Shown here one piece after another: positions 4,746-47,607 of a DNA stretch of 64,000 nucleotides. The DNA comes from Patescibacteria group bacterium. GTDB lineage: Bacteria; Patescibacteriota; Minisyncoccia; Phycocordibacterales; UBA918. The DNA is taken from the NCBI GenBank assembly GCA_038065355.1, contig JBBTRC010000005.1, forward strand, positions 30,530-94,529. The letters run 5' to 3'. A program made the position numbers and the translations under genes. Under the pieces are notes generated by a model. That model worked only from the letters and a program-made list of their open reading frames with translations. It ran no database searches and was not told the DNA's origin. Position 1 is the stretch's first letter. Each line of letters begins with the position of its first letter.

Positions 4746-4844
4746 GCAGTAGCATTAAATTGACTACCTCCCAAATATGTACTCCTTCATTGTACGATGC
4801 ACCCCAATCTATCCCTTGCAGTTATGCACAAATCTTTATTCATT

Positions 4845-17100: not shown

Positions 17101-20100
17101 TACACGTCGCCGCCCGTAGTTTTGGTGTTGAGCGAATAGGCGTTCGCACCATCAAGGGCTAGAGCACTGCCAGTCCAAGTCGTCGCGGCTCCGCCGACAC
17201 TGTTTAAGAACACACCTTCCACTTTTAATGTAGCTCCAGACTGTAAAGTGAAGCTACTCGCGCTCGCCAACGTAAAGTTGTTGGTAGTCGTCGCGGAAGC
17301 CGCCAGCGTGTAGCCCCCGGTCGGTGCACCAATTTGCACGTTGTAGAACGAACTCACGCCTGGATCAATGAATTCCCCACTATCGGAAGAGTTGAACAAC
17401 ACAGTATTTGAAGCGTGAGAGAAGGTGCCGCCACTCGCATCAAAACTGCCGCCGACAGACAGTGTGCCTGATGCCAGCGTGACGTTTCCGTCGGTAATAA
17501 AGACGCTGTCGAGGAAGGTAATATCTTCATCAAGCATGGTGTAAGCGCCTCCGCCAGCGAAGTTGACCGCGTAGAGGTCGGAGCTCGATGCCAAGAGTGT
17601 GGCCGTGGTGGCGTTGATGAGTTTCAAGTCAGCGGTGTTGTGGATGATAGACCCACCAGTATTTGCGAAGTCACCGCCGACAGTGAGACGGCCAGACGGT
17701 AGAGTGATGGTACCGCTTTCGACGGTAAAGACACCGGTCGTGGTGGCGTTGGTGTCGCCCCAGGTGTAGGCGGCGCCGGAAAATGTGACGCCGGCTAGAT
17801 CAGATCCCCCTTCTGTCACAATGCCTGATCCGGTAAAGAGCGCGTGGCCACCATTGGCATCAAAGGTGCCTCCAGTCTGTACCAGCGATCCGGCAAAAGT
17901 AGATGTGCCGATCGGGAACGTGAGTGCACCCGCACTTTTACGCAGATTGCCATCTACGGTGAGCGTGTTGTCCGAAATAACCCAACTTCCCGAACCAGTA
18001 AAATCAAGATGGTGAAAAGAGTGTTCATTCACGTCGATAGTTCGAGCGGCGCCGGTTGTGGTAAACGTCGTCGTGCCATTGCTACTGACAAAATCGGCGT
18101 TGTTACCAAGAATCATACTGCCGCCGACACTGAGAGTTTCTGTACCTTGTCCAGTCCAGAGCGCATCAGCGTGAAGCTCAAGTGTTCCGTCATAGTCGGC
18201 TCCGGCGCCACCGCCAGCCACCGTTACGTTTCCACTCGGCGCAAATTCTTTGGCGTCCCACACAATGAGTTTTCGATTGGCCGGCAAGATGAGTGTGTCG
18301 GTACCGGCATTGACGGCGGTGAATGGAATATCTGCGTCGTCTCCAGAGTCCCATACCGCGAGATCGGCAATGGTAATAGGGTTCACGTTTTCATGGCGCA
18401 CAATCACTCGATTTTCGTAGATATCCAAATCGCCAATGTTTGAGATTGGTTCTTTGGTCACAGTGGCACCCTCTGACGAAGTGCCGCTTATGTACACGAC
18501 AAGTGAGTCGGTGGTACCGTACGAGACATTGGAAATACTGTACGCGCCGGTCGTTGCGTTGCAACTAGCGGTGTACGACGTGATACCGGCCACTGTAAGC
18601 ACGATCACGTTGCTACTGCCGTCGCACACATTTGAAACGGTCGTTCCTTCGTCGCTGTAGACTGCGCCCGCGACCGTGATGAGTGCGGCTGAGTCATCCC
18701 ACGCCACATAACCTGGGTCTCCGCCCGGATCAACGTCATTGGCTTCTCCGTCAATGTCACCGTAGTGATTGGCAAAGCGCCACGCACTGACCGTCGTGCC
18801 GGTGGCGGTGACATTGAATGCACTGCCGACGCCATCGAGTGCAAAGCGGTTTTGTGTGAAGTTCTTGGCTGGGTTATTGGTGATGACCGAGCCGCCGACC
18901 GTTATCGCCGAACCACCGGTTTGCGATACTCCGAAATCCCCGTTTGAAAGTGTAGTCACCTGTGGCAAACCAGTGAAGATGATTCCGTCACTGCCCGTAT
19001 CGCGCACTTCGTAATAGCGAAGCGACGTTGAGGCGGTGCCGCCGATGGTGAGGGCATACGTGCCAGCACCTTGATTTTGTAAGGTCGTTGATGCCGACGA
19101 AACTCCGTAGACTGCGAGCGCGCCGCCGGTGTAGAGCGCGCTAGCTCCAGGGGCAAAGTACACATCAGTTTGGCGCTCGCTACCACTAAGATTAGTACCG
19201 TCAAAATCAGTGCTGTAACTCCAATGATCGGTACCGGTTGATTTTCGGTAAGCTCCCCAAATGTACAGATCACCATTTTGCGCCCCGTGATCTTGCGAGT
19301 AAAGCGACGCAGTGCTTTCTACATCATACGTACCAGCACTCGAGTTCCACATGCGAATTTGTGTGGTGTCGCCAATCGACAAAGTGTCGTAGGAATCGGT
19401 GGTAGTCGCGGTGTTGATACTGTAGTTACCACCGCCATAGAGACGCAAGGTGGCGCCAGTCCAGGTAGTGGCGGCTCCTCCTTCATCATTTACAAAGGTG
19501 CCACCAACCGCCAACACTTGCCCACTACCGGCGGTGAAAGTGTTGGCATTTAGCAGTCTCCAGGCGACGGTCGCAGTGGCGTGCTCGGTTATGGTAATGT
19601 CACCAGTCGTGTTTATGACGACATTGCCAAAACTACTCGTACCGGCGGCAATTATTTGCGTACCCGCGCCGTCAAATGTGAGCGTGCCATTGTTGCTCGT
19701 GAACACACCGTTATTTTCGTAATTGCCAGCCACCGTGAAGCTTGCAGTATCGCTCGCGCCGAGAGTACCATTGCTTTCGATGAAAACATCTCCATTCACA
19801 TCAAGCGCCGGATCACTGGTCGAGAGGTTAAAAGTCGTAGCGGCCGCACCGCCGATAGAAAGGTCATTGTCGACGATGATGCCAAGACCAGTGGCGGTGT
19901 AGGTAGGTGAACCAACAGCAGCGTTTAGTTCTAAATTATAGTACCGAGTTGAAAGCACGTTAGCCCCAGCGCCACTGTAGCGAATAGTGCTGGTGTCTTC
20001 TAAGAGTGTGCCGTTCTCAATAAATACTGTGCCCGTACCGGCTAAATCCCAAGCAGTACCACCGGCGTCGAGGAAGTGAGCGGGAGCGATAGTAAGTCGC

Positions 20101-23100
20101 CCACTTATGGTCGTGGTACTTGTAAATACCGGCGTAGTGGTGCCAATATCTATGCCATCACCGAGTTGTAAGTTGTAGAAAGTCCAAGGGCTCGTGCCGC
20201 CGAGAGTGTTGGTGTTGGCAATCGTCGTCGTACCAGCGCCAAAGGAAAGTATGCCGTTACCGCTTAATGAGCCGTTTTGAAGCGTAATGTCACCAGTACC
20301 GGTCACCGTGCCGGCAGTAAGCGTGAGGTCGCCATTGGTCACAATGTCTGCCCCCACATTCCAACTGCCCCCACTTCCGTTGAATTCAAGCTCGTTGAAT
20401 GCAATCGTACTGCTCGCGGTGATGCTCTTGCCGGAACTGGTAGCGTTCATATGCACCGTCGTACTGGCCGCGTCAAAGGTGGCGCCGTTTTCAAGCACGA
20501 GGCGGCCGCCAATAGTGAGGGTGCTGGTGCTATAGGCGTTCATAGTCGCATTCTCACCTAGGTACAATGTGCCGTCATAACTATTGGCGGCCGCGTTTGC
20601 TGCCAAAGTAACAACCCCATTCGGAGTAAACGTAGATGACGCAAAGACAAAAAGTTCAGTTCCAGCCAGCGTAGTGAGTGTGTTGGGGTTTGAAGTAGTG
20701 GCGGCCAAATAGCGCAGGTCGGTGTCGTTTGAAAAATCATACGTAGCCAAGTTGGCAATGGTAAGTGCTTCGGTATCTTCGTTCCGCACTATCACGCGGT
20801 TGACGTAAATATCCAAGTCGGTAATATCAGCGGTCGGTGTGCGGGTCACTACGCTACCCCGCTCATCACCAGAGGCGTCATCAAGATAGATGGTGAGCGT
20901 CGGGTCACCCACTATCACAATTCCCCCGATGCTATAGGTGCCGTCGACGTTGCTACAACTGCCAGTGTAGGATGCTCCGTTTTCGACTACCACCCGCACA
21001 ACCTGATCGACTCCGTCACAAGTGCCACCGACAAGTGGAGTGGTGCCCGCGTCGCTGTAAACCGTTCCGGCAACCGTAATGGCAAGCGAACTGTCATCAA
21101 AACGGACCGAACCAGGGTCGCCAGTGTCGTTGTCAAAATTTTCTCCATACAAATTGCCGCTTCCCTCTCTAAACCACCAGAATGAGGTTGGGGCGCCGTC
21201 AGTTTGGGCTACGTTAGTAGCAGAAATTGCCGTCGTAGTGGCAAAGTTCACATTGAAAATCTGCTTTGCCGGATTGGCATTAATGGTAGTTGAGGAGAGT
21301 GTGATCGCGGTGCCGCCACCTGCCGCGACCGTGTAGGAACCATCACGTAAATTCGACACATAGGTACCTCCAAGTAGAGATAGGCCAGAGAGACCGAGGT
21401 CAGTAAATTCGTAATATTGTGCCGTGGTGGTTCCGCCTGTCACCGCTACCGTGTAAGTACCAGTACTTTGATTTCTGATTGTGGTTGATGCGGTACTAGT
21501 ACCTGTGATGGAGAGCGTGCTATCGGTGAATGACGCAGTCGCATCAGAGGCAAAGCGTACGTCGATCGCTCGCTCGCTTCCACCTGCGAGCGAGGCGCCA
21601 TCAAAGTCGGTGGCGTAACTCCAGTGCTCAGTGCCGCTTGTCCGCGTGTAATCACCGAAAATGTAGAGGTCGCCGTCTACCGCTCCGTGATCTTGCGAGT
21701 AGAGTGCGCCGCCGCTTTGGGTAGAGTAGGTCGTTGCCGACGAGTACCACATCGCCACCTGTGTACTCGTGCCGACGGAAATGGTGTGATAGGCATCGCC
21801 GTTATCAACTTTAGAGTTGAGACTGTAGGAACCTGATCGGAGCGCGAGCGTCGCACCAGTCCAAGTAGTCGATGCGCCGCCGACGTTGTTGGTAAAAGTT
21901 GCTCCGACAGAAAGAGTTTGGCTCGGTGCGAGGGTAAAATCACTGGCGTTTGTTAAAGCAAAGCTGTTGGTAGTAGTCGCAGGCGCAGCTATCGTCCAGC
22001 CACCCGTCATACTATTGAAAGTAACGTTGTAGAGAGCAGAGTTACCAAAATCAACGATCTCGCCCGCATCGGTTGAATTAAAGAGGATGGTTCCAGAACC
22101 CGGCAACACCGAGGCGGCGTTTTGGTACGAGCCGCCAAGCGCGAGGGTGGCGCTTGGCAAAGAAAGCGTGCCTTGTGCGATGAAAAGGTCACCAGTCATG
22201 GTGGCAGTGGTGTCACTAAACGACCACGAACCAGAGCCATCAAATTGGACAGAATGATACGTCGAGCCGCCGGTTGTGAGAACTTCCGCAACGCTACTAT
22301 AAAACAAGAGAGTGCCGGTGCCGCCAGCAAAACTGCCGCCACCGTCAATGAGGGTACCGCCAATAGCAAACACGCCGGCTGGAAAGTTCAACGTCCCTTG
22401 CAAGACTCGAACGTCGTTCGTGCTGGTAGCGTTGATATCAAGTACAGTCCAACTGCCACCACCGTTGAAGGTGAGGTTGTTGGCCACATTGGTGAAGGTG
22501 CCGCCAGCAAAGGTGAGTGTCTCGGCGGCGTTTGAAGTGAAGTACAGGGTTCCGTTATTGTGTGCAAAGGTGCCGCTTGTTACTAGGAACGATCCGCCGA
22601 CGGTGGTCGTGGCAGTCGGAAGCGTAACCGTACCGGCCGTTACTTGTACATCGTTGCTCGCGTGGAGCGTCGGTTCTGTAAATGACCAACTACCGCCACT
22701 GCCATTGAAGGTAAGATCGTAGAATGCATCGCCGGCAGTGGTAATCGCGTGCGTAGAACTCGTGGCGGCAAACCTCACTTCGCCCGAGCGAGAAACGAAA
22801 TTGTTTTGGTTGTTCCATCGTCCATACACGGTGATATCGAAGTTGCTGGTTGAGGCGTCGAGCGTGTCGTTGGCACCAATTGTGATCGACTCGGCTGTTA
22901 CTGTGCCGGCCAGAGTGACTATTTTTGAAGTACCATCGACCACTACGTGACCGACATTCTGTTTCACTACATTCTGATCATTCCAAGTTGATGCTGTATT
23001 GCCGTCAAAAGTGGTGGTACCGATTCCCGTCCAAAAACCGCTAACGCCTGTGACTACGTTGCCTGCAACTGTTATCGCAGTCGTGCCACGTGCGAGGGTG

Positions 23101-26100
23101 CCTCGATTGACCGATAGGTTGCCATCAACATCAAGCGCGGTAAGCGGTGTCCAGGCACCACTACCGGTCGTCGTACCAAACGTGAGATTCGCGAAGGTGG
23201 TGTTAACGGCTCCAGTGTTGTCAATTGTTTCTGATGTGCTGGTGGCCGAAAACACAACCGTCGATCCGGTTAGTGTCGTCGTGGCGTTGTTGTCCCATGA
23301 ACCATTCACCTCGTGTGTGTACGAACCGGCGACAAAGATACCGTTATTTTCAAAATCATGAGTGACAAAGCGGCCGCCCGGTGTGTAGTACGTATCGGCA
23401 AGGATGTGGAGTTCCACATCTGTACAACCGCCACCGGCACACAATGAAAGGGTTGACCCGGAGAGGTCAAAGAAAACATCTTCGGTGTTTGTGAAATCGT
23501 AGAGACCGATATCGGCATCTGTGAGCGGAGTGGTAGTAGCATCGTTTGAACCGAGCGTGAGATGCCGCTCGTAGAGTACCATGCCATCAATATCACCTTG
23601 ACCATCGTACCTGGTCACGCCAACCGCCTCGTTTGCATCTGGCGCCGAGGTGACAAACACACTAACCACGTCGCCGGGGAAAGCGGTGACATTACTTATG
23701 CTCCAAGTGCCGCCGCCGACAGTGCCGGTCTTACCTGTCTGCAACACACCATTGACTGCAACCGCTACTGTGCCGCTCGTCACCGCTGTCGCTTGGTCAT
23801 ACTCGGCGATGGTGCCTGAAACGGTAATACCGCCCGCCCAGTCAATTTTCCAATCTGAAATGCTGGGGCAATTGCCTGACCCGTCGCAAGCAAGTTCAGC
23901 GTACGGACGAATGACATTGTAAGTATTGGTATTGAGATTACTAAGATCAAACGGCCCGGTTGTGGTACCGGCGACGTTACCCGGGAGATCTGCGTCCGGA
24001 ATAAAAGCCCAACTACCAGTCGCGGTGTAGTACTCTAGATGGTAACTGGCTACACTCGTACCTGGCGTGGCGTCATTCCACGAAAATGAGTCCCAGTAGG
24101 GGCCAGTCCCATCATTGAAATCTAGAGCCGGACTCACTACCGTCGTACCCTCACGACCGGGGTTGCGCGGAGCGAGAGAATAAGGATGGCCGAAAGGCGA
24201 AGTGTCAACTGACGCGTTTGTTTCAAGAGCTGAGAGGCTTGACCAGGTCGTGCCGTTCCAGGTGCTCGCTTGGTACGTATCAGATGGATCGTCAAAGAAG
24301 ACGCCGAGAATGGTGTTGTCGCCCGCTCGCGCCAACTGCAAAGTTGCGTTGTCACCGAGCGTGTCAACATTGCTGATCGACGACCAGGTGCTGGCGTTGT
24401 AAGTGAAGTAGCCAACTGCCGTAGTCGTACTGATGGCAGTCATGATGTAGCCGTTTCTGCCAGTGGTGTCTTCATACACGCAATCAAAACCCGGGTCTGT
24501 TTTGGCATTTCCATTGGCATCAGTCACTAACTCGGTTTGTCCGGCCCACGCCGAACCCGTCCAACGTACCACCCCCGCCGCCGTATCTTCATCCTGGTAA
24601 CAAAGAACCATCGCGTCACTGCCCACATCCCTCGACAACCGGGCCCACTCAAGATCATCACCAATGGCTTCTGTGGCGGCGGTCCCCCAAGTCGTTCCGT
24701 TCCAACTGTTCCAACGAAAACGAGCCGGATTGCCGTCTGAGGTCACAATGAGCGCTTGACCGCCGCTCTCTTCATACATAACCGCCATACCCTCATGAGC
24801 AGTGTCAACGATACTTCCCTGCGTCGTGGCATTACCCCAGCTACTGCCGCTCCAGACTTGAGCCTCATACTGGTTGCCAGCAGCATCCCGGGCCAGGAAG
24901 ACTATTTCGTCCGAAGTTGGGTCGGCCGCCAGCTGTAACCATTCACAATTGCTGGTGCTGTTGAGGTTAATCGTGCCACCGCTCGTCCATCCGGACCCGT
25001 TCCATATATAGTAGCTTGGGTCTGCGTCACCGTCACAGTACGCTACCAGGGCATCACCAGAGTTCGTTTCGTAGGCGATGTCAAAACCTTGCGCATTTAT
25101 GTTGCCGACGTTAGTTGTTAGTTCAAGCAAGTTAGCCCATTCGCCCGTCGCAAAAACTTGCACGTTCACGTCGGCGTCAGACCCGGCAGTGGCGGCCACA
25201 TATTCTTCCCTGGTGGCGCCTGCCTCTACCACTACCCTGCGGAGAGGCGCGCCGATATCAAGAAGGGTGCCTTCACTGCCCCAAAGAGAGCCGTCCCATT
25301 GCCGATAACGAGGCTGTGTCTCCGTACCCTCTCCATATACCAACATCGCCTCAGTGGCTGTGGTTGCCACCGTCACGGTATCGTTCGAAAGCGCAATAGT
25401 TCCTGAGAGAATATTAGAATCAAATTGCTCTTCTGTAGTTTGAAACCAGGTCGAAACGTCCGTGCCCGGTACCATAGTAAAACTTCTCGCTTCAGTCCAA
25501 AATGAGTAGGCATCGTCACCAGTCGTGTCTTTGGCCCGTACCCGCCACCAGTACGTTGTCGAGCCTGATAGTGCGTCTGCCGGCTGAATCGTAAATTGAA
25601 TCGTCTCGCCAGAATTAAATGGATCGGTATCCAGACCGGTGTCGATATTGGTAAATCCAGCAGCCGTGTCGGAGGTCCGGGTGGTCGAGGAAGTAAAATC
25701 GGGCGTAAGCGACCATTGAAGTTGATACGTGAGACTATCGTTTTGCGGATCGGCGGTTGTAAATTCAAATGTTGGTGTGGTGGTACCCACTTGCTCGTTG
25801 GCAAATAATTTTGTAATAGTCGGTGTCTCAACTCGATAGCCCCAATTGATGGTCCAGTCCTGGAGCGAAGGCGAACCACCTGAATTTGTAAACGTGGCGA
25901 CGATCCGCAGTACGTTGTACGTGTCGGTATCGAGCGTCAAGAGAGAGACCGGTGAGGTGTCAAAGCCGCTGCTGTTGCCGGTGAGCGCTGAATCCGGCAC
26001 CAACGACCAGGTATCGTCGGTATCCAAATATTCAATCTGGTATTTAATATCGCCGGCGGTTTCGGTGTCAGAGAAAACAAAGTTGTCCCAGGCGGTGCCC

Positions 26101-29100
26101 AAAGCACCATCGTCAAAATCAATCGCTCCACTTATCATGGTGCCAGTCGTCGAACCACTTATGAGAGATACTTGGTCACTGCCTGTCTGTACGCCGCTTA
26201 AGGCATTGGTATCAAATTGTTCGTCTTCGGTTTGAAACCAAGCGGAAGCGGTCAGTGCAGTATCGACGGTTACACTGTAAGTGGTTGACCAATTGCCCCA
26301 GTCTGCGGACCCATCGGGATCTTCAGCGCGCACTCGCCAGTAATAGGTGGTTCCATTTGTGAGTGACGAAGGAGGAATGACTCTGATTAAGTTACCTTGA
26401 ATAAACGGCGCCTTATCGGAGATGAGCACCTGGTTTTCGAAATAGTCATCTTCACTGGCGTTTTGTGTGTCGAGGTCATGAACTGGTGAAGAAAAATCGT
26501 AGTTGTTATCAATTTCAATTTCGTAATGTATCTTGTCACTCTCTGCATCAGTGGCGTAAAACTCAAACCACGGTGTGGTCGATGCGGTTTTTTCATTGTC
26601 AAACGGTGTTTCGAGCACCAGAGTACCTGGCGCGTCATTCGTGTAAATCTGCGGATAGTTTCCGTACGTTGAAAATGCCGAACCATCTCCTTCAACCAAC
26701 CGGAAACAATAATTGGTGCCAGGAACGGCGTTGTTATGTTGAAGTACGAAGTCCCATTCACCAAAGTCGCCGACTGTTATTTGGTTGGGTGTACTGGATG
26801 CGTAGCCATTTTCCTCGTATGTTTCTGCTACGGTGGACGATGCAAGAAGTTGCGACGTGAGCGTTCCGCTATCAGACACGCTGGTGTTGTTGTACCCACG
26901 CCAGAGTGCCGTCGTAGAAGAAATATCCCCCACATCACGCCAACCGCCAGCGGCGCTACAGGTAGCCGCCGCGGCGTATTGCAGTGTAAACGTCGAACCA
27001 GCACTTGAAGTCGCGTTTGAAACACTGGTGTTTAGACGCAAGCGAATACGCTCACCTTCCTTGACTGGCGTTGAAACAGCCGTTACTGGTTCGTTTTCAG
27101 CTAGATCACTAGCCCCACTTGGCCAAGGATCAGTGGGAACTTGCGCATTGTTGTTTACATACCACCGAAATGCTTGTTCTGTATAGACAGGATCAGTACC
27201 TTGCCGCTTACCAAAGACCACAGTGAGATAAGGCGGCAAGTGGCTGACTGTACTGAAGCTGTTGACATTAACCGAGTGCGTGTGGGCACCGCTCGCACCG
27301 GCGGTACCGCCTGGCTGGTTTCCGGGTGAATTGGCGCTCGGAGCACTCGAAGTGATACCGGTCACATCTGCATTTGTGTGGGTGTTTTGTCCTCCAGTTG
27401 CACTGAAGGTTGTTGATGCTTTGAGGAAACGCTGGTTGAACGGATCGCCGGAAAGCGAAGATATATCCAGCCAGCTGCCATCAACTTCTTCAGTCCACAT
27501 AGCGATGAGTCCGTTTGGCGGTGTGGTCGTCGCGTCGAGTTTACCGAGAATGACCTCGATGTAGCGCGGTTCGGTACTCGTTGAAGCTGTCGAACCGCCA
27601 ACTGTGTGCGTGTGCGTACTAAGCGCACCGGTTGCGGCGCCGCCACCACGGTTGCGGGTGCCAGTGCCGCCAGCTGTGCCGGTTGTACCACTAATTGCGT
27701 GCGTGTGAGTATTCCCGCCGCCGGTTGTACCGGGAGTATTTCCACCGTAGATGTAGTAACCGTCCTGTGCGCTGTATCTTGTCCAGCCGCTCGGAACGGT
27801 TGCGTCAAAGATACCAATGGCGCCGGTCGGAATGTCGGTCGGTTCACCAGCCGCGTCGGTGTACTGAATGACGCGCAACTCGCGATACGCCGGCAAGTTG
27901 GACGCGCTCGCGATAGTCGGCGAGTAGGTATGCGTATGAGCGACCGGAGCAATTGTGCCGGAACCGGATTCGGTGCTCGCAAGCGTGGTGGCCAAAACCG
28001 AGCCCACCGCCGTGTGCGTGTGCGTTGTCGCTCCGCCAGTCGTATTGTAGGTGGAGCTACCGTAGGCGAAGCGCTGGTAAAAAGTCCCAGACCCGCAAGA
28101 AAGACACGTCCAGCCAGTTGGAATCGCCGAACCGTTATCCCAAAATAGGATCATGTTGCCGACGGCATCGGAAGCAATTTGCCACTGCCGGTGCTCTAGG
28201 AACGAAGCGGCGGTCGGCTCCGCTGAAGTCGCTGTTGATGTTCCGCTGACAACAGTCGGTGACTGATTATCGTTTATGAGTTCGGCTGGTCCGAGGTTGT
28301 AAAGATAAGGGGACAAGTCGGGTGCATCAAAATCATACGAGACCGTTTCAGCACCCGCACCGAGAATCGAAATGTCCCAGGTCAGTATTTTTTCGTTGCC
28401 GGTTTGCGTGATGGTCGCATCGGTGTTAAATACGTCAAACTCTGCCGGAATACGTTCGGTCAGTGTACCGGTAAAAGAGCGGTTCGTTTCCACCGTGAGG
28501 TTCATCGGGTAAGGAGCGGGTGGGTAAATGCGAGTTGGACCATCGCGCAAAATTGCCAGTGGTTGATCATCAGCCACTAAAAATGTATCGGAAGTGAAGG
28601 CTAGTACATTGCCGTTTTCGTCGAGACGTTCCAAGTACAATTCGTAGGTGCCGGGAAGCGTGGTCGGTACTGCGGCACTGAAGTCAGGCACGTCTATCAC
28701 GTTGTTACCGTCACAGAAACCAGACTCGGTTACGGCAGGAACGGTAATGATGCCGGCCGGATCAGTCACGAACAAGTTGAAACTAGCTTGGCAGATAGTG
28801 TGTCCGTTTGGTGAGAGTGCTCCGATAGAGATCTCTGCTGTCTCGCCGGTTTGATACTCGCTTTGACTTGGGTTCATGCTTAAAATTCCCCACGCAAAGC
28901 TAAAGGTGTCGGTAAACACTACGCCGCCCTCATTCAGTGAGAGTTCGACTGCGTAGTTGCCTGGGCGAAGTTTTGCCAGATCCTCGTCTTCAAATTCAAC
29001 AGTGATGAGTCCCTCTTTTGTGGTAGTGATGCGAGGAGAAATACCAATCGGACCTTCGCCCTGGTGTCTAACAAGCACCGACTCTACCGTGACCACGTTG

Positions 29101-30704
29101 CCTCCAAGCAAGCTTCGCCAGCCGCGGATCAAAGCGTTACGTTGTTCGTTATACCGTAGGTTAAATACCGGACGTTCAAATCTGCCAAAGTTGAGTTGTT
29201 CACTGACAAGCGTGGTATAGATGGGAGCTTTAAGATGCGTGAGGGCGGCCGGAAGTCCGCGGGCTTTCAGATCTTCCTTGGTAATGACCCGGGTGTGAAG
29301 TTCGAGCCAGACTGCATCAAGAAACATTCCATCTAAAAACTCACTTTCACCATGGTAGCGAAGCACCACAGTGGTACTTGCGAGTGTTTGCACATTCTTT
29401 ACAACCGGTAAGGCGAACAGGAAGTAGCCGCCATTCTGCGCATTTGATACTTCGTCCTCAAGCAAGATGCCGCCGACTGATTGAAGCTGGCTGCCGTCGC
29501 CATAGAGTACTTCAATGTACGGGGCCGTCCCCGACGCAGGAGATTCAAGCTGCGCCGCAAACGATAACCTAAGCTGCATGCTGTCGATAAATTGACCGGG
29601 TTGAAGCGGCGCGGTGTCAAAACTTGAAAGCGTAATTTCATGGACTGATTGGCCGCTCTGTGTGAGTGGAGTTTCCGGTGCTTCGTCGAGAATGGTACTC
29701 GTCGTTGCAATGCTCGATGTCGCCAGGTTCGCCGTGGTTGACGAGTTGGATGACGCACCGTTTGAGTCAGTAAGCAAAGCGGGCAAAGATGAGCTTGCCT
29801 TCTCTGTGGTAGTAGTTGGTGTCGTTTCTGTTTCCGTAATCGCTATTTCCGTTTCTGTCGTGCTGTCAATCTCGGTCAGAGTGGAATCGACAACAGCCGT
29901 GCTCGCTTCCGATTCTTCGGACGTTATTGGACTGGTGCTCGTCAGTGTAAGCTCCGCCAGCGGAAACAAACCAAAAGCTTGTTCAAACACGCCCCATACG
30001 GTGCGCGCCGTTGTTCCGCTCTCCAATCGCGACACTTCTTCAATAGGAACCGACTCGGCGGGGGGAGGAGTCACCACCTCATCAACCGGTTCTGGTGCTA
30101 CCTCTGGAACGTCGACCGGTGTCGCCGCCTCTTCGCTCGCTTCGCTTTCCTCATTCGCAGTGTCGGTTGGGACTGTCTCGCTGTCAGCCTCGCTCGCCGG
30201 CAAGGATTCTTGTGAAGCTTGTTCATTGGAAGAAGCGGCCGTAGTTGATGACACAGTCGGTGATACGGACGAAGAAGATGAGCTTCCGTGTAATGCGTCA
30301 ATCTTAATTAGAGATGTCGAGCTGGCGTGAGATCTGGTAAAAGAATTTGGCAATATCAGTGCGCCTTGTGGCACGTAGGCAGAGTTTATTGCCGAGAATT
30401 CCTGGTACAAGGCATCGTCGGCCAGATCCTGTGAGAAAACATTTTCAACGCCCGCCCAGTCTGCTGTTTCAGCCTCAACGGGATAGATGTTGACCGTTTG
30501 GATTGTGCCAAAATTCAAAACTTGGTTGCGCTTCGACTCAGCGGTTTCTGAAAGCGAGACATTCACCACAATAAGGAGAAGGAGCGCGACCATTGCCTGC
30601 CACAGCAGTCGACCACTAACAAAACCCCGCATCTCACTTTCAGGCGCTTTAAATAACAGTTTTATGAAATTATGTCTTGTGTTGTGACAGCTTTTTTTCT
30701 TCAC
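14109..30704 (-). CDS. Giant multidomain surface protein, 5531 aa. Order: N-terminal TM anchor; acidic Ser/Thr/Glu-rich spacer; triple phage tail-collar-like HTHT repeats; FN3-like modules; predicted beta-propeller with six W-x-G-S-x-W repeats; long beta-helix-like Gly/Thr-rich repeats including three ~770-aa super-repeats; DUF2341-like and LamG/ConA-like lectin domains; Cys-rich region; conserved C-terminal YWGIAVPFG...QGQNVF motif.
   Basis: Uninterrupted 16.6 kb ORF. Domain calls from motifs read in the translation: TGGATTHTHT...LPAYRELRVIQY x3; DLRFTDESGTTTLPFWIG...VWVQV...YMYYNN; three WTGATL(A/R)L... units at residues ~2947, 3748 and 4509. True start may be the downstream Met at ~30632 (MRGFVSGRLLWQAMVALLLLIVV). 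Confidence 0.85.
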   Translation of the reverse strand: MKKKSCHNTRHNFIKLLFKAPESEMRGFVSGRLLWQAMVALLLLIVVNVSLSETAESKRNQVLNFGTIQTVNIYPVEAETADWAGVENVFSQDLADDALYQEFSAINSAYVPQGALILPNSFTRSHASSTSLIKIDALHGSSSSSSVSPTVSSTTAASSNEQASQESLPASEADSETVPTDTANEESEASEEAATPVDVPEVAPEPVDEVVTPPPAESVPIEEVSRLESGTTARTVWGVFEQAFGLFPLAELTLTSTSPITSEESEASTAVVDSTLTEIDSTTETEIAITETETTPTTTTEKASSSLPALLTDSNGASSNSSTTANLATSSIATTSTILDEAPETPLTQSGQSVHEITLSSFDTAPLQPGQFIDSMQLRLSFAAQLESPASGTAPYIEVLYGDGSQLQSVGGILLEDEVSNAQNGGYFLFALPVVKNVQTLASTTVVLRYHGESEFLDGMFLDAVWLELHTRVITKEDLKARGLPAALTHLKAPIYTTLVSEQLNFGRFERPVFNLRYNEQRNALIRGWRSLLGGNVVTVESVLVRHQGEGPIGISPRITTTKEGLITVEFEDEDLAKLRPGNYAVELSLNEGGVVFTDTFSFAWGILSMNPSQSEYQTGETAEISIGALSPNGHTICQASFNLFVTDPAGIITVPAVTESGFCDGNNVIDVPDFSAAVPTTLPGTYELYLERLDENGNVLAFTSDTFLVADDQPLAILRDGPTRIYPPAPYPMNLTVETNRSFTGTLTERIPAEFDVFNTDATITQTGNEKILTWDISILGAGAETVSYDFDAPDLSPYLYNLGPAELINDNQSPTVVSGTSTATSAEPTAASFLEHRQWQIASDAVGNMILFWDNGSAIPTGWTCLSCGSGTFYQRFAYGSSTYNTTGGATTHTHTAVGSVLATTLASTESGSGTIAPVAHTHTYSPTIASASNLPAYRELRVIQYTDAAGEPTDIPTGAIGIFDATVPSGWTRYSAQDGYYIYGGNTPGTTGGGNTHTHAISGTTGTAGGTGTRNRGGGAATGALSTHTHTVGGSTASTSTEPRYIEVILGKLDATTTPPNGLIAMWTEEVDGSWLDISSLSGDPFNQRFLKASTTFSATGGQNTHTNADVTGITSSAPSANSPGNQPGGTAGASGAHTHSVNVNSFSTVSHLPPYLTVVFGKRQGTDPVYTEQAFRWYVNNNAQVPTDPWPSGASDLAENEPVTAVSTPVKEGERIRLRLNTSVSNATSSAGSTFTLQYAAAATCSAAGGWRDVGDISSTTALWRGYNNTSVSDSGTLTSQLLASSTVAETYEENGYASSTPNQITVGDFGEWDFVLQHNNAVPGTNYCFRLVEGDGSAFSTYGNYPQIYTNDAPGTLVLETPFDNEKTASTTPWFEFYATDAESDKIHYEIEIDNNYDFSSPVHDLDTQNASEDDYFENQVLISDKAPFIQGNLIRVIPPSSLTNGTTYYWRVRAEDPDGSADWGNWSTTYSVTVDTALTASAWFQTEDEQFDTNALSGVQTGSDQVSLISGSTTGTMISGAIDFDDGALGTAWDNFVFSDTETAGDIKYQIEYLDTDDTWSLVPDSALTGNSSGFDTSPVSLLTLDTDTYNVLRIVATFTNSGGSPSLQDWTINWGYRVETPTITKLFANEQVGTTTPTFEFTTADPQNDSLTYQLQWSLTPDFTSSTTRTSDTAAGFTNIDTGLDTDPFNSGETIQFTIQPADALSGSTTYWWRVRAKDTTGDDAYSFWTEARSFTMVPGTDVSTWFQTTEEQFDSNILSGTIALSNDTVTVATTATEAMLVYGEGTETQPRYRQWDGSLWGSEGTLLDIGAPLRRVVVEAGATREEYVAATAGSDADVNVQVFATGEWANLLELTTNVGNINAQGFDIAYETNSGDALVAYCDGDADPSYYIWNGSGWTSGGTINLNSTSNCEWLQLAADPTSDEIVFLARDAAGNQYEAQVWSGSSWGNATTQGSIVDTAHEGMAVMYEESGGQALIVTSDGNPARFRWNSWNGTTWGTAATEAIGDDLEWARLSRDVGSDAMVLCYQDEDTAAGVVRWTGSAWAGQTELVTDANGNAKTDPGFDCVYEDTTGRNGYIMTAISTTTAVGYFTYNASTWSSISNVDTLGDNATLQLARAGDNTILGVFFDDPSDTYQASTWNGTTWSSLSALETNASVDTSPFGHPYSLAPRNPGREGTTVVSPALDFNDGTGPYWDSFSWNDATPGTSVASYHLEYYTATGSWAFIPDADLPGNVAGTTTGPFDLSNLNTNTYNVIRPYAELACDGSGNCPSISDWKIDWAGGITVSGTIAEYDQATAVTSGTVAVAVNGVLQTGKTGTVGGGTWSISNVTAFPGDVVSVFVTSAPDANEAVGVTRYDGQGDIDGMVLYERHLTLGSNDATTTPLTDADIGLYDFTNTEDVFFDLSGSTLSLCAGGGCTDVELHILADTYYTPGGRFVTHDFENNGIFVAGSYTHEVNGSWDNNATTTLTGSTVVFSATSTSETIDNTGAVNTTFANLTFGTTTGSGAWTPLTALDVDGNLSVNRGTLARGTTAITVAGNVVTGVSGFWTGIGTTTFDGNTASTWNDQNVVKQNVGHVVVDGTSKIVTLAGTVTAESITIGANDTLDASTSNFDITVYGRWNNQNNFVSRSGEVRFAATSSTHAITTAGDAFYDLTFNGSGGSWSFTEPTLHASNDVQVTAGTVTLPTATTTVGGSFLVTSGTFAHNNGTLYFTSNAAETLTFAGGTFTNVANNLTFNGGGSWTVLDINATSTNDVRVLQGTLNFPAGVFAIGGTLIDGGGSFAGGTGTLLFYSSVAEVLTTGGSTYHSVQFDGSGSWSFSDTTATMTGDLFIAQGTLSLPSATLALGGSYQNAASVLPGSGTILFNSTDAGEIVDFGNSALYNVTFNSMTGGWTIAAPATTTNSFALTNASDFTLAPSQTLSVGATFTNNVGGASTTWTGATLALRSGSYSLNSKVDNGDAYHTISVGTSTQVAMWYSSATTYSTQSGGALYSQDHGAVDGDLYIFGDYTRTSGTEHWSYATDFDGASLAGGSERAIDVRFASDATASFTDSTLSITGTSTASTTIRNQSTGTYTVAVTGGTTTAQYYEFTDLGLSGLSLLGGTYVSNLRDGSYTVAAGGGTAITLSSTTINANPAKQIFNVNFATTTAISATNVAQTDGAPTSFWWFREGSGNLYGENFDNDTGDPGSVRFDDSSLAITVAGTVYSDAGTTPLVGGTCDGVDQVVRVVVENGASYTGSCSNVDGTYSIGGIVIVGDPTLTIYLDDASGDERGSVVTRTPTADITDLDIYVNRVIVRNEDTEALTIANLATYDFSNDTDLRYLAATTSNPNTLTTLAGTELFVFASSTFTPNGVVTLAANAAANSYDGTLYLGENATMNAYSTSTLTIGGRLVLENGATFDAASTTVHMNATSSGKSITASSTIAFNELEFNGSGGSWNVGADIVTNGDLTLTAGTVTGTGDITLQNGSLSGNGILSFGAGTTTIANTNTLGGTSPWTFYNLQLGDGIDIGTTTPVFTSTTTISGRLTIAPAHFLDAGGTAWDLAGTGTVFIENGTLLEDTSTIRYSGAGANVLSTRYYNLELNAAVGSPTYTATGLGIIVDNDLSIGGAAATTFNLSTSDPALDVNGDVFIESNGTLGASDTASFTVAGNYENNGVFTSNNGTLTFDGAGTQIIAAGTSSFGNVVINTTGDITITEHATATVAWRLLNANTFTAGSGQVLAVGGTFVNDEGGAATTWTGATLRLYGGGNYSINTATTTDSYDTLSIGDTTQIRMWNSSAGTYDVESTASLYSQDHGAQNGDLYIWGAYRKSTGTDHWSYSTDFDGTNLSGSERQTDVYFAPGASALYTGGALAVYGVSSASTTLQNQGAGTYALTIGGTASTSLRYYEVRDTGSDGIIFTGLPQVTTLSNGDFGVSQTGGSAITVGGSVITNNPAKNFTQNRFALDGVGSAFNVTATGTTVSAWRFANHYGDIDGEANDVDPGGDPGYVAWDDSAALITVAGAVYSDEGTTVSNVCDGSSNVIVLTVAGITSYTASCNATTGAYSISNVSYGTTDSLVVYISGTSSEGATVTKEPISNIGDLDIYENRVIVRHENVNPITIADLAVWDSGDDADIPFTAVNAGTDTLILPANRKLIVWDAKEFAPSGNVTVAGGGAGADYDGTLELHADALWTGQGTETLSVGGSMILGNNADFVSSNGTTTFTTTGAARTIDVNEHSFHHLDFTGSGSWVISDNTLTVDGNLRKSAGALTFPIGTSTFAGSLVQTGGTFDANGGHALFTGSGIVTEGGSDLAGVTFSGAAYTWGDTNATTTGVFTVESGTITLPSGRLTVGGDFANTGGSIIHNTADLKLINATTATLLASSSDLYAVNFAGGGAYTMLDEDITFLDSVFITDGNVTLASGTLSVGGSFDASGGTFSHASNTVLFNSSDSGEFIDPGVSSFYNVQIGAPTGGYTLAASATTTNNFTLASASSFTLQSGATLKVEGVFLNSVGGAATTWTGSALALDGANAYSLNTKTTGGDVYDGLTIGAASDIRMWNSRATSTVAANASLYSQDHNAVDGALNIYGDFTIGTTSEYWSYATDFDGVSLLGSERVVTVQHEANATTTLLSGSLAVVGESGNETTITNQGSGTYSVNVAGGTLNAQRYIFRNLGANGLSLSGTPAITSLSYGDFELAVDGGTLLTLSSTTLNANASMVHTGNRFATTTAISGANITMTGSTSNAWTFVSHTGNLDGEAFDVDGVDDCGSVRWSDSACLLTQQTGYRWRNDDGGLGVPDSEWYDAAWNARKQVRVVNADATNYTNAAVQLYVEYDSDMQADFGDLRFTDESGTTTLPFWIGSTTASTIAEVWVQVATLPAEETATVYMYYNNPTATTTSSSTDVFIAADDFEDDDISEYSGQTSLFNTGTSFAYDGTYGLDNSGNTTGRANLGGIYRFGQTVSQGETIRFWQYVDTAGTSDETCTKFAVQGTNVPNDNYAVCVELPGTDHIAVVEDVTENESSGATLATADVSFTTGWYEFELDWGTDDTLFLSLYDASHSLVATTSATDSSYTSGGIGFTYWFNQGGFDSFSSRPTLATEPTILFGAEQADGGASFAAAQNTAATFSVTDTARLRVVVENSGLAIGGQEFRLEFASQDTAPSCEAVDEADYAPVPPQASCGTSAVCMQTSNNVTDSASVADLLVNAEGAFTAGEVREDPSNTTSAIDVDQNEYTELEYVITPTSNVIDENLCFRVTDNGTFYDTYLQVAKMSLRFDPIVDSITLNNGEAISLLPGTTTAVVATGTVTDLNGYTDLSHATGTFYRGGVVGGASCAVDNNNCYSVGGSACTFTDCAGDSCTVSCQADIYFHADPTDTGSAYDGEEWFAFLEVEDTGGGYDFGTSIGQELNTLRAIDIDGAIDYGSVAVTEDTGSVNATTSIENQGNVEINIEVEGTDMTDGYSSTIPSTKQKFATSTFTYSGCGASCNLLSSTTPVVLNVDLSKPTTTTPPVADTVYWGIAVPFGVNSAPHQGQNVFTPVGP

Positions 30705-39951: not shown

Positions 39952-41169
39952 TCAAAACAAATCCCAAAGTTCTTCGTCTTCCTCGCCGTCAATTTTAAAG
40001 ATAGCAGTGCCGCGCAGGTTATACTTGTCAACCAATTCTACTTTATCTGCAATCGCCGCCGCGTCACTCCACGTCACAAAGCGCACTGGTAGTTCAATCT
40101 CGGCGACAGTCGCCACAAGAAGCGCTTTGGCGGCAGCCTCATAGCCAAGCGGGGTACCGGTTGGCGTTGGCAACTGGTTAAAGATTTTCCATACTGAATC
40201 TTCCGGAAAATAACTTACCACTGCTTCGCCGCCCGCCGTCCGCCCAATTGGCACGCCATACTTCTGCACGATATTTAACACATCTTCATGGTTGAGAGTC
40301 GCGACCGGCGTGTAGTCACGATACCATTCTTTGGCCACAGTGATGTCCCAGGCGCGGCCATACGTCGGCACACCCAACATGACTTTATCATTATCAAAAT
40401 CTTCTAGTGCGAGATCTAAAACCTTCTCCACCCACTCGACATCCGCCACCGGCATGTACGGCACGCCCTTCCGCTCGTCATTGAGCTTCAGGTCGGCACG
40501 TTGCTGGTCGTACGCCATAATCTCAATCCAGTCACAATGACGATTGATGGCTCGGTAGTCATTTGAGTACTCGATTCTTTTTGGCACGTCGCGCCAGAGA
40601 GATTCGGGTGGGGTTCTGGCTTCGACGGTACAAGTAAGCACCGTCTTGCGCGGCAACGCATCGGCAAGCTCTTCCAAAAAGAGCGAGTAGTCGTCAATGG
40701 TTTCGGCCAAACGTGATTCGTAGTCAATGTTGATACCGTCAAAGTCGTTATTTTTGACTAAACGGACAATATCACGAATGTGGTCGTCTCTTTTCTCGTC
40801 ATCATGGAGCACTTCATGTATCGCATCGCCATCAAACCAAGAAATGGTGGGAATTACCTTTACATCCTCATCTCTGGCCTCATTCAATAAACGGCGCCAG
40901 TGCCGGTCACGCAAGTCGACTTTATTTACAATGTCCGCATCCGTCGATACTTCGTAGACAAACGGATACAAAATATCTAGTTCATCTATGTGTTTAAGGG
41001 CGCTTTTGGCACCGGATTCTTCGGCAAACCAAGGCACCCACGCCGCCACCTCGGCGGCGTGGGTTGTTCCGGGCACATTTGCCGACAAGAAGAGTATCAC
41101 CGCGATAGTTGATCGCACTAACAAAGCGTTATTGAACCTCATATTTGTAGTGACGCTGTACTCCCCCAT
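39952..41169 (-). CDS. Secreted glycoside hydrolase family 18-like protein (chitinase / peptidoglycan-hydrolase-like TIM barrel).
   Basis: Signal peptide. Catalytic-site-like motif NNDFDGINIDYE (the GH18 DxxDxDxE pattern). Confidence 0.6.
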   Translation of the reverse strand: MGEYSVTTNMRFNNALLVRSTIAVILFLSANVPGTTHAAEVAAWVPWFAEESGAKSALKHIDELDILYPFVYEVSTDADIVNKVDLRDRHWRRLLNEARDEDVKVIPTISWFDGDAIHEVLHDDEKRDDHIRDIVRLVKNNDFDGINIDYESRLAETIDDYSLFLEELADALPRKTVLTCTVEARTPPESLWRDVPKRIEYSNDYRAINRHCDWIEIMAYDQQRADLKLNDERKGVPYMPVADVEWVEKVLDLALEDFDNDKVMLGVPTYGRAWDITVAKEWYRDYTPVATLNHEDVLNIVQKYGVPIGRTAGGEAVVSYFPEDSVWKIFNQLPTPTGTPLGYEAAAKALLVATVAEIELPVRFVTWSDAAAIADKVELVDKYNLRGTAIFKIDGEEDEELWDLF

Positions 41170-47478: not shown

Positions 47479-47607
47479 AAATTTTACCCTGACTAACGAA
47501 GTAATCACACGGCAGAAAGAGATTTGTCGTGTTACGGTTACTTTACTCCTTTCTTTCAAAAAAGCAAGTCTAGAACACAAGAGTCCAAATTTGGCAATAG
47601 ACAGGGG

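What the first reader, a model, noticed from the sequence alone, without database searches (positions are those of the whole stretch)
27207..28142. Three tandem phage tail-collar-like modules (HTHT motifs) inside the giant protein
Residues ~855-1166 contain three ~100-aa units. Each has a Gly/Thr-rich stretch containing T-H-T-H-T (or HTHS/HTHTY) and each ends in a hydrophobic L-P-(A/P)-Y-x-x-(L/V)-x-V-I/V motif. The unit boundaries are GSGTFYQRFAYGSSTYNTTGGATTHTHT...PVAHTHTY...LPAYRELRVIQY, then YYIYGGNTPGTTGGGNTHTHA...STHTHTVGG...PRYIEVILGK, then FNQRFLKASTTFSATGGQNTHTN...GAHTHSV...LPPYLTVVFGK. This is the signature of the phage tail-collar/MdpB fibre-tip fold, in which HxH motifs coordinate metal in trimeric fibres. 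Its presence implies the giant protein may trimerise into a fibre and bind a receptor the way a phage tail fibre does. That suggests a phage-derived module recruited into a cellular adhesin.
Basis: partly seen in the sequence, partly recalled or inferred. Interest (0 to 1): 0.7.

Follow-up and report, generated by a model that had tools for sequence, protein, structure and literature searches.

The report
Phage fibre tip fused threefold in-chain
Three tandem ~105-residue units inside a 5,531-residue surface protein of an ultrasmall (Patescibacteria) bacterium are each related to one subunit of the metal-binding tip of a three-chain phage tail fibre, and they most likely fold together as a one-chain imitation of that trimer, so the giant protein does not need to trimerise.

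Summary
Residues 848-1170 of the 5,531-aa ORF (window 14109-30704, minus strand) hold three homologous ~105-aa units. Together they carry all five HxH motifs of the protein, plus one degenerate H-T-N.

Remote homology still supports the link. The three window units match a family of single-unit phage fibre tips and 'microcystin-dependent' proteins (hhalign probability 99.0%, E 2e-18). That family matches solved homotrimeric fibre tips: 9QGO, Pa223 gp60, JUB59 RBP, T4 gp37 and T4 gp12.

The inference that the giant protein trimerises is not supported.
- Among 196 relatives, units come in threes (160), sixes (24) or nines (1). The apparent exceptions are fragments or triplets with a domain inserted in unit 2.
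- Each unit position is its own orthologous lineage (456 of 471 units).
- AlphaFold2 folds the triplet as a single chain into one rigid body (pLDDT 89.5, pTM 0.85). A lone unit loses its HxH region (pTM 0.47).

Best reading: a single-chain pseudo-trimer with two likely His6 metal sites, which can be spliced into a monomeric surface protein. The family is large (6,649 cluster representatives) and none of the members I scanned has a Pfam or NCBIfam hit over the triplet. It also occurs in phage tail proteins (phiAsp2 Pas28 and Pas29). The metal-site geometry and any adhesive role are inferred, not shown.

The parts
14109..30704 (-). Giant ORF (5,531 aa) that carries the module. It has an N-terminal hydrophobic signal/anchor segment, and a possible alternative start at Met25 (codon 30630-30632).
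   Evidence: ORF list and translation. Pfam finds Ig_Rha78A_N at residues 1638-1744 and DUF2341 at about residues 4831-4906. Full-length orthologues exist in Patescibacteria MAGs: P0090, from Ca. Paceibacterota, is 46% identical over 5,237 aa.
27855..28163 (-). Unit 1 (residues 848-950): VGNMILFWDNGSAIPTGW...THTHT...AHTHTY...LPAYRELRVIQYTD
   Evidence: Unit HMM envelope E 1.6e-44; translation checked; pLDDT 90-98 in the triplet model, apart from the tip loop.
27528..27833 (-). Unit 2 (residues 958-1059): IPTGAIGIFDATVPSGW...THTHA...THTHTV...EPRYIEVILGK
   Evidence: Unit HMM envelope E 8.2e-43; translation checked.
27195..27521 (-). Unit 3 (residues 1062-1170): PPNGLIAMWTEEVDGSW...THTN...AHTHSV...LPPYLTVVFGK
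   Evidence: Unit HMM envelope E 1.5e-49; translation checked.
28014..28022 (-). U1 first HxH (H895-T-H897), on the ascending limb; a putative ligand pair of metal site 1
   Evidence: His at these columns is conserved in 92-94% of 157 triplets.
27930..27938 (-). U1 second HxH (H923-T-H925), on the descending limb; a putative ligand pair of metal site 2
   Evidence: His is conserved in 98-99% of triplets.
27699..27707 (-). U2 first HxH (H1000-T-H1002)
   Evidence: His is conserved in 96-97% of triplets.
27606..27614 (-). U2 second HxH (H1031-T-H1033)
   Evidence: His is conserved in 98-99% of triplets.
27372..27380 (-). U3 first motif, degenerate (H1109-T-N1111); site 1 would therefore have five His plus one Asn
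   Evidence: At this position the family has HTH/HSH/HNH in 128 of 157 triplets and HTN in only 2. Close relatives lose one His in a different unit.
27276..27284 (-). U3 second HxH (H1141-T-H1143)
   Evidence: His is conserved in 98-99% of triplets.

Best explanation
Residues 848-1170 most likely form a single-chain pseudo-trimer of the metal-binding tip fold of phage tail fibres.

Each ~105-residue unit corresponds to one protomer of a homotrimeric fibre tip. It has three parts:
- a truncated 'short collar': an N-terminal strand and a P-x-G-W turn that pair with the C-terminal L-P-P-Y strand;
- a Gly/Thr-rich hairpin arm;
- one HxH on the ascending limb of that arm and one on the descending limb.

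Inferred by homology with T4 gp37, T4 gp12, JUB59 RBP and SU10 gp16: the three arms of one polypeptide knit around a pseudo-threefold axis. This would bring 3 x HxH together at each of two levels, giving two octahedral His6 sites for Fe2+ or Zn2+. In this protein, site 1 would be His5 plus Asn.

The result would be a rigid, metal-clamped knob with three variable Gly/Ser/Thr tip loops pointing away from the point where the chain enters and leaves. Because each unit begins and ends in its collar part, the triplet can be spliced into a monomeric multidomain protein. It would need no trimerisation and no fibre chaperone.

The host protein is a signal-anchored giant surface protein of a Patescibacteria (CPR) cell. 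The knob most likely acts as a stable projecting display or binding element for attachment to a host cell or a surface glycan.

What is shown and what is inferred:
- Shown: the units are homologous; they are related to trimeric fibre tips; copy number follows the multiples-of-three rule; each position evolves separately; the triplet is predicted as a compact single chain.
- Inferred: the pseudo-threefold geometry, metal binding and the adhesive role.
For: 1. The units are real paralogues.
2. They are homologous to fibre-tip protomers.
   - hhalign of the window units against the single-unit family gives probability 99.0-99.4%, E 2e-18 to 1e-21.
   - That family hits 9qgo_A (1.8e-25), 9nxk_A (2.9e-22), 6ov6_A (1.1e-20), 2xgf T4 gp37 (1.9e-5) and 1ocy T4 gp12 (6e-4). 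Papers describe Pa223 gp60 and SU10 gp16 as trimers.
3. Copy number follows a multiples-of-three rule. Of 196 relatives, 160 have 3 units, 24 have 6 units as two separate triplets, and 1 has 9. Proteins with 1-2 units look truncated: most are short proteins whose match starts at or runs to a protein end. All six proteins with 4-5 detected units are triplets in which a unit is split or too diverged to be found. In four of them the split unit was scanned and holds a Gly_rich_2 domain between its two HxH motifs in three, P0065, P0067 and P0075.
4. For 456 of 471 units, the best match in another protein is a unit at the same position.
5. His at both motifs is conserved at 91-99% in all three positions.
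6. One ligand can be lost in a single unit only: HTN in the window's U3, HAP in U3 of L001, HTP in U1 of L002. A homotrimer cannot be asymmetric in this way.
7. AlphaFold2 folds the triplet as a monomer with pLDDT 89.5 and pTM 0.85, and the strand order is the same in all three units. U1 alone, with a 43-unit alignment, gives pLDDT 75 and pTM 0.47. It keeps only the N- and C-terminal strands, and residues 30-95 lose all strands.
8. Foldseek matches the whole triplet to phage phiAsp2 Pas28 and Pas29 (E 5e-15 and 2e-14, TMq 0.59 and 0.66). Each of those has exactly three units.
9. Published work reports that HxH pairs in T4 gp37, JUB59 and SU10 gp16 bind or may bind Fe2+.
10. The gene sits among cellular and surface-protein genes, not phage genes.
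Against: - Both rest on homology plus confidence scores.
- Pfam Collar does not match the window sequence.
- The link to solved structures is transitive: window units to the single-unit family to PDB.
- AlphaFold2 can be overconfident on repeats.
- The triplet is no more variable than the rest of the protein among orthologues (48-50% identity against 43-53% overall), so there is no sign of receptor-driven diversification.
- It lies internally, at residues 848-1170 of 5,531, not at a fibre end.
- No experimental data on metals or ligands exist.
Confidence: 0.68

Rival explanations
1. The giant protein homotrimerises. Each unit assembles with its two copies from the other chains, giving three successive trimeric HxH segments along a phage-like fibre.
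For: Every solved relative that the cited papers discuss is a homotrimer. HxH sites in those fibres are built from three chains. Phage fibres often carry several HxH levels in series.
Against: Serial segments in a homotrimer have no reason to come only in threes, yet copy number is 3, 6 or 9 and the exceptions resolve to triplets. Position-specific orthology holds for 97% of units. One-unit ligand losses and a domain inserted in unit 2 only show that the three units are not interchangeable. The monomer model is compact with pTM 0.85. The other ~5,200 residues carry Ig-like, DUF2341 and long repeat regions, with no coiled coil or other trimerisation element detected.
Confidence: 0.08
2. Beads on a string. 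The three units are independent small beta domains, and their His pairs each bind metal or a ligand separately, for example for metal capture or a catalytic role. There would be no common axis.
For: Tandem Ig-like and fn3-like domains are common in this protein and its neighbours. There are weak hits to the HxH-containing YmaF family. A lone unit still reaches pLDDT 75.
Against: A pTM of 0.85 for the triplet means the relative placement of the units is confident. In the lone unit the whole HxH region loses its secondary structure. Independent domains would vary freely in number, but the triplet rule holds. Inter-unit linkers are only 2-7 residues. The homologous protomers in phages are obligate trimers.
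Confidence: 0.1
3. A compositional artefact. The region is a Gly/Thr/Ser-rich low-complexity stretch in which the HxH motifs and the apparent repeats arise by chance.
For: The region is Gly/Thr/Ser-rich. The U1/U2 BLASTP E-value is 2.0 after composition adjustment.
Against: The other pairwise E-values are 9e-9 and 4e-11. None of 2,000 shuffles reaches five HxH. There are 2,177 cluster representatives at E<=1e-10. The motifs are conserved and the model is confident.
Confidence: 0.01

Closest known systems
Receptor-binding tips of homotrimeric phage tail fibres: T4 gp12 (1OCY, 1PDI), T4 gp37 (2XGF), JUB59 RBP/C24 (6OV6), Pa223 gp60 (9NXK), SU10 gp16 (7Z47) and the 9QGO tail fibre
   Same: The unit has the same order of elements. 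An N-terminal strand with P-x-G-W comes first, then G-G and the first HxH, then a variable tip, then the second HxH, and finally a terminal PP(Y/F)-x-x-hydrophobic strand. Homology is detectable by profile comparison. SU10 gp16 likewise has exactly two His pairs per chain, proposed to bind Fe2+.
   Different: Those proteins have one unit per chain and need three identical chains. Here three diverged units (about 31-37% identical) lie in one chain. The module sits inside a cellular 5,531-aa protein rather than at the C-terminus of a virion fibre. There is no elaborated head domain at the tip.
Pfam PF07484 Collar / 'microcystin-dependent protein' (MdpB)-type small proteins, and PF21939 Gp10_C
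   Same: These are the single-unit relatives reached with the phage-like unit profile. Several pass the Collar threshold or carry the MdpB name. The G-x-I-x-x-W...IP-x-GW start and the N-x-PPYY-x-(L/V)-x-(F/Y)-I-(M/I)-K end are shared.
   Different: The window units do not match either Pfam model. Even in the short-collar relatives, only positions 1-22 of the 57-position Collar profile are matched. The helix and 'PDLRG' part of Collar is absent from the window units (alignment).
Actinoplanes phage phiAsp2 Pas28 and Pas29, and an SU10-like podophage protein (P0039)
   Same: They share the tandem-triplet architecture in one polypeptide, with exactly three units. Foldseek matches the whole triplet at E 5e-15 and 2e-14, TMq 0.59-0.66. 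The depositors annotated Pas29 as a possible receptor-recognising protein with HXHY motifs. P0039 is encoded next to portal, capsid and adaptor genes.
   Different: The phage units are longer (about 130-138 aa). phiAsp2 Pas28 and Pas29 carry four HxH per unit, three of them 7 residues apart, so about four metal levels would be expected instead of two. They are virion or tail proteins, not cellular surface proteins. Identity to the window triplet is only about 22%.
PAAR-repeat spike tips (for example 4JIW and 6P22), as an analogy only
   Different: No sequence relationship was detected, and the repeat and metal-site organisation differ. This is a conceptual parallel, not family membership.

Membership tests
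Pfam PF07484 Collar (Phage Tail Collar Domain) | A match to the family HMM at or above the gathering score (24 bits) | tested here: not met
   No family is reported at E<=10 for residues 801-1267. None of the three window units hits it. Among 43 units from relatives, only 2 reach E 0.011, which is below threshold.
Pfam PF07484 Collar (Phage Tail Collar Domain) | N-terminal strand plus the P-x-G-W(-x-x-C-D-G) turn (profile positions about 1-22) | tested here: met
   IPTGWTCLSCG, VPSGWTRYS and VDGSWLDIS align to the IPsGW-LCDG columns of short-collar relatives (hhalign probability 99.0-99.4%). Those relatives match Collar positions 1-22 at 22-28 bits.
Pfam PF07484 Collar (Phage Tail Collar Domain) | The middle part of the domain (profile positions about 23-57, ending in the PDLRG-type motif) | tested here: not met
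   In the hhalign alignment the window units have a gap or a short unrelated linker where the relatives have GnNGTPdLr. Only P0225 among the relatives checked covers positions 5-57.
Trimeric metal-binding phage fibre tip (T4 gp12/gp37, JUB59 RBP, Pa223 gp60, SU10 gp16) | Sequence homology of the protomer | tested here: met
   The unit profile against PDB gives 9nxk_A at E 0.01 and 7z47_I at E 0.078. The transitive link is window units to the single-unit family (E 2e-18), and that family to 9qgo, 9nxk, 6ov6, 2xgf and 1ocy (1.8e-25 to 6e-4).
Trimeric metal-binding phage fibre tip (T4 gp12/gp37, JUB59 RBP, Pa223 gp60, SU10 gp16) | Paired histidines (HxH) on the fibre-forming strands | tested here: met
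   There are two motifs per unit (one is degenerate, HTN). His is conserved at 91-99% across 157 triplets.
Trimeric metal-binding phage fibre tip (T4 gp12/gp37, JUB59 RBP, Pa223 gp60, SU10 gp16) | Assembly from three identical polypeptide chains | tested here: not met
   Three non-identical units lie in one chain. Supporting results are the multiples-of-three rule, position-specific orthology, and a compact monomer model with pTM 0.85. The oligomeric state itself has not been measured.
Trimeric metal-binding phage fibre tip (T4 gp12/gp37, JUB59 RBP, Pa223 gp60, SU10 gp16) | An Fe2+ or Zn2+ ion coordinated octahedrally by six His on the (pseudo-)threefold axis | not testable with these tools
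The feature is inferred from the papers read.
Trimeric metal-binding phage fibre tip (T4 gp12/gp37, JUB59 RBP, Pa223 gp60, SU10 gp16) | Being part of a virion or tail gene module | tested here: not met
   The neighbouring genes encode fn3, cohesin and dockerin proteins, HSP20, an ABC/FtsX transporter, TypA/BipA, a Y-family polymerase and an M48 peptidase. No phage genes are present.
Tandem-triplet HxH module (unnamed; phiAsp2 Pas28/Pas29 and giant proteins of Patescibacteria and DPANN) | Exactly three contiguous units per module, with position-specific signatures | tested here: met
   The giant protein has units at 848-950, 958-1059 and 1062-1170 and nowhere else. Pas28 and Pas29 are covered.

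The most novel reading that the evidence does not exclude
A natural tandem-triplicated, single-chain version of the intertwined, metal-clamped trimeric tip of phage tail fibres. It would be a very large domain family with no Pfam or NCBIfam model over the triplet. It is shared between phage tail proteins and the giant surface proteins of ultrasmall episymbionts: Patescibacteria, and a MAG labelled as a DPANN Woesearchaeota archaeon. In those cells it would serve as a chaperone-independent, insertable host-attachment knob, with an asymmetric tip that can accept an extra domain in one unit only.
Probability: 0.45. Interest if true: 0.75.

Novelty: new variant of a known kind. Interest (0 to 1): 0.6.

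Why it matters
- **Fold evolution.** Intertwined phage fibre tips are classic obligate homotrimers that often need dedicated chaperones. A natural single-chain fusion would show how such a fold can be freed from oligomerisation, made asymmetric (loss of one ligand, a domain inserted in one arm) and used as an ordinary insertable domain. This matters for understanding fold evolution and for engineering single-chain receptor-binding proteins.
- **Annotation.** It puts a name and a testable structure on a recurrent segment with no Pfam or NCBIfam hit in the giant proteins of Patescibacteria. At E<=0.001 the library holds 6,649 cluster representatives, and the best 150 of them carry 3, 6 or 9 units. 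Published work only infers adhesion or host-interaction roles for large DUF2341/FhaB-bearing Patescibacteria proteins as a class (PMC11809585).
- **Biology.** It points to exchange of attachment hardware between phages and episymbiotic cells.

Tried and rejected
- Pfam on residues 801-1267 at E<=10 gave nothing. NCBIfam on the triplet and on each unit gave nothing.
- PHROGs gave only phrog_2097 'tail fiber protein' at E 6.6e-4. This is too weak and too composition-prone to rely on by itself.
- The triplet profile A2 against PDB sequences gave 0 hits at E<=10.
- tblastn of the triplet against 50,697 phage records gave no match at E<=0.01.
- The afdb50 fold library was not available.
- The search for related loci with alignment A2 failed because no stretch was conserved enough. 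Only the single-sequence scan of genome contigs worked.
- Self-BLAST of the whole protein returned only the identity hit, so I replaced it with a chunked comparison.
- Literature searches found no paper describing the tandem triplet or a pseudo-trimeric fibre tip.
- I rejected a prophage or phage origin for the locus on the basis of its neighbours.
- I rejected hypervariability of the module as a whole.
Full report
**1. What is there**

The finding lies in one ORF at window 14109..30704 (minus strand), which encodes 5,531 aa.

An HMM built from the three proposed units finds exactly three envelopes in the giant protein and none elsewhere. They are U1 848-950, U2 958-1059 and U3 1062-1170.
- The units are 31-37% identical.
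- BLASTP gives 9e-9 for U1/U3 and 4e-11 for U2/U3. U1/U2 gives only 2.0 after composition correction.

All five HxH motifs of the protein fall here. Shuffles of the protein give a mean of 0.75 HxH, and none of 2,000 reaches five. The sixth expected motif is H1109-T-N1111.

**2. Where the window comes from**

The neighbouring genes encode fn3, cohesin and dockerin proteins, HSP20, an ABC/FtsX transporter, TypA/BipA, a Y-family polymerase, an M48 peptidase and a queuosine salvage protein. None are phage genes.

The closest genomic relatives of the module are a Candidatus Parcubacteria MAG (75% identity) and a MAG labelled Candidatus Saccharibacteria (68%). Full-length orthologues of the giant protein exist. 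One example is P0090, from Ca. Paceibacterota, annotated only as a 'DUF2341 domain-containing protein' and 46% identical over 5,237 aa.

The host is therefore a Patescibacteria (CPR) cell, and the protein is a giant surface protein. In the literature, large DUF2341/FhaB-bearing Patescibacteria proteins of this kind are only inferred to mediate adhesion or host interaction (PMC11809585).

**3. Is it a Collar / fibre-tip module?**

- Pfam reports nothing at E<=10 on residues 801-1267.
- NCBIfam reports nothing.
- PHROGs gives only a weak 'tail fiber protein' hit (E 6.6e-4).

More sensitive comparisons nevertheless connect the units to phage fibre tips.
- A profile of longer, phage-type units (A4) retrieves 63 small single-unit proteins. 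Several are labelled PF07484 or PF21939, or are named 'microcystin-dependent protein' by JGI.
- On re-scanning, those proteins pass the Collar threshold, but only over profile positions 1-22 of 57. They carry a 'short collar'.
- hhalign of the three window units against an alignment of that single-unit family (A5) gives probability 99.0%, E 2.2e-18, end to end. With 43 units it gives 99.4%, E 9.7e-22.
- A5 in turn matches solved fibre tips: 9qgo_A (1.8e-25), 9nxk_A (2.9e-22), 6ov6_A, the RBP of prophage JUB59 (1.1e-20), T4 gp37 2xgf (1.9e-5) and T4 gp12 1ocy (6e-4).

The SU10 paper states that its trimeric short fibre has two His pairs that may bind Fe2+, 'as occurs in T4 and JUB59' (PMC9509320). 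The seven Fe ions held by HxH pairs in T4 gp37 are summarised in PMC11705849.

Each unit is therefore a remote but well-supported homologue of one protomer of a trimeric, metal-binding fibre tip. It is not a member of Pfam Collar as that family is defined.

**4. One chain or three?**

*Copy number.* A search of 1.84 billion representatives with the unit profile finds 6,649 proteins at E<=1e-3, 2,177 at E<=1e-10 and 609 at E<=1e-30.
- 160 have three units;
- 24 have six, as two separate triplets;
- 1 has nine;
- those with one or two units look truncated, being mostly short proteins whose match starts at or runs to a protein end.

*The exceptions.* The six proteins with 4-5 detected units are triplets in which a unit is split between its two HxH motifs or is too diverged to be found. 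Four of them were scanned, and in three (P0065, P0067, P0075) the gap holds a Pfam Gly_rich_2 domain.

*Position-specific evolution.* For 456 of 471 units, the best match in any other protein is the unit at the same position. The triplication is therefore old and the three positions evolve as distinct lineages. His conservation is 91-99% at all twelve positions.

*Asymmetry.* A ligand can be lost in one unit only: HTN in the window's U3, HAP in U3 of L001, and HTP in U1 of L002. A homotrimer cannot show this.

*Structure prediction.* AlphaFold2 folds residues 840-1175 as a single chain with pLDDT 89.5 and pTM 0.85. The model is all-beta, with the same order of strands in each unit. As a control I predicted U1 alone with the 43-unit alignment. 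It drops to pLDDT 75 and pTM 0.47 and keeps only its N- and C-terminal strands. Residues 30-95, which carry the HxH motifs, lose all secondary structure.

*Phage counterparts.* Foldseek against predicted viral structures matches the whole triplet to Actinoplanes phage phiAsp2 Pas28 and Pas29 (E 5e-15 and 2e-14, TMq 0.59 and 0.66).
- Each has exactly three ~135-aa units with four HxH apiece.
- The depositors annotated Pas29 as a possible receptor-recognising protein with HXHY motifs.
- A further three-unit protein, P0039, is encoded next to portal, SU10-type capsid and adaptor genes in a podophage contig.

**5. Best explanation**

The three units most likely knit together within one chain into a pseudo-trimeric copy of the fibre tip. 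Each unit would supply a small short-collar part, made from its N- and C-terminal strands, and one hairpin arm. The arms would bring 3 x HxH together at two levels, forming two His6 metal sites. In this protein the first would be His5 plus Asn.

Because each unit starts and ends in its collar part, only 2-7-residue linkers are needed between units. The whole module enters and leaves at one end. That would explain how it can sit inside a monomeric 5,531-residue protein.

The Gly/Ser/Thr-rich loops between the two HxH motifs show no consensus across the family. This is also where relatives carry an inserted domain. That position corresponds to the distal, receptor-facing end of phage fibres.

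The pseudo-threefold geometry, metal binding and an adhesive role are inferences. I could not read the model coordinates. Chain-wise PDB fold searches are uninformative here.

Among orthologues the module is about as conserved as the rest of the protein (48-50% against 43-53% overall). So there is no evidence of an arms-race-type receptor binder.

**6. Rivals**

- Independent bead-like domains are disfavoured by the high pTM, the collapse of the lone unit and the fixed copy number.
- A compositional artefact is excluded by the statistics above.

**7. Novelty**

- The fold family (fibre tip, Collar, gp10_C, gp12, gp37) is known.
- The tandem-triplet, single-chain form seems undescribed. None of the scanned members, in the window or among relatives, has a Pfam or NCBIfam hit over the triplet.
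- I found no paper on it. That search covers only the held library.
- The triplet also occurs twice in a 5,808-aa protein from a MAG labelled Candidatus Woesearchaeota, at 42% identity to the window's module. The two proteins otherwise share only a 35%-identical stretch of about 95 residues at the window protein's DUF2341 domain. This suggests exchange between episymbiont lineages, or mis-binning.

I classify the finding as a new variant of a known kind, of moderate to high interest.

Noticed in passing
window 16392-22922 (-), residues ~2595-4771 of the giant protein: There are three copies of a super-repeat of about 800 residues, 38-48% identical (for example 2756-3190 against 4317-4750, E 6e-98). 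They have no Pfam match and are rich in T/G/S/N, possibly beta-helix-like.
   Followed up: partly
window ~23837-26615 (-), residues 1364-1504/1625-1768 and 1522-1621/2188-2289: Two further pairs of internal repeats lie downstream of the triplet; 1625-1768 overlaps the Ig_Rha78A_N match (1638-1744). In relatives, Ig_Rha78A_N arrays and DUF2341 flank the triplet directly, for example in P0127, P0065 and P0067.
   Followed up: partly
window 30818-32356 (-) and 32919-34814 (-): Immediately upstream of the giant gene are a cohesin-domain protein (also carrying Big_13) and a protein with a C-terminal type I dockerin, separated by an HSP20 gene. This is a possible cohesin-dockerin surface-assembly pair in a Patescibacteria genome.
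   Followed up: no
window 12594-14099 (-): Directly downstream of the giant gene is a 501-aa protein made of fn3 / purple-acid-phosphatase-N-type domains. It may belong to the same surface-protein operon.
   Followed up: no
window 60001-62000: GC content drops to 0.37, against about 0.50 elsewhere. The dip covers a queuosine-salvage gene (60153-61124) and a class I methyltransferase (61099-61839), next to tRNA-Ser(GGA) at 61888-61975. It could be a small acquired island.
   Followed up: no
relatives P0065 (328-513), P0067 (764-974), P0075 (618-800): A Pfam Gly_rich_2 (PF21722) domain is inserted between the two HxH motifs of unit 2 only. This is the predicted distal tip of one arm, an asymmetric elaboration of the triplet.
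   Followed up: yes
P0059 (MBN2422330.1, 5,808 aa) and P0074 (RJQ31340.1, 5,472 aa): Giant proteins from MAGs labelled Ca. Woesearchaeota (archaeon) and Actinobacteria each carry two triplets, 41-42% identical to the window's. Beyond the triplets, P0074 shares nothing more with the window protein, and P0059 shares only a 35%-identical stretch of about 95 residues at the window protein's DUF2341 domain. This points to cross-lineage sharing of the module, or to mis-binning.
   Followed up: partly
L001:3001-4020 and L002:3001-4020: In the two closest relatives, the single missing His of the first metal level sits in a different unit from the window's. L001 has HAP in U3, L002 has HTP in U1, and the window has HTN in U3. 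The second level is intact in all three.
   Followed up: yes
window 30630-30704 (-): The listed ORF starts at GTG (30704). The first Met is residue 25 (codon 30630-30632), just before the hydrophobic segment LLWQAMVALLLLIVVNVSL, so the true start may be there.
   Followed up: no
window 43435-47580 (-): A second large surface-type protein (1,381 aa) carries SpaA, SdrD_B and CarboxypepD_reg-like domains. A GH18 chitinase-like gene lies at 39952-41169.
   Followed up: no
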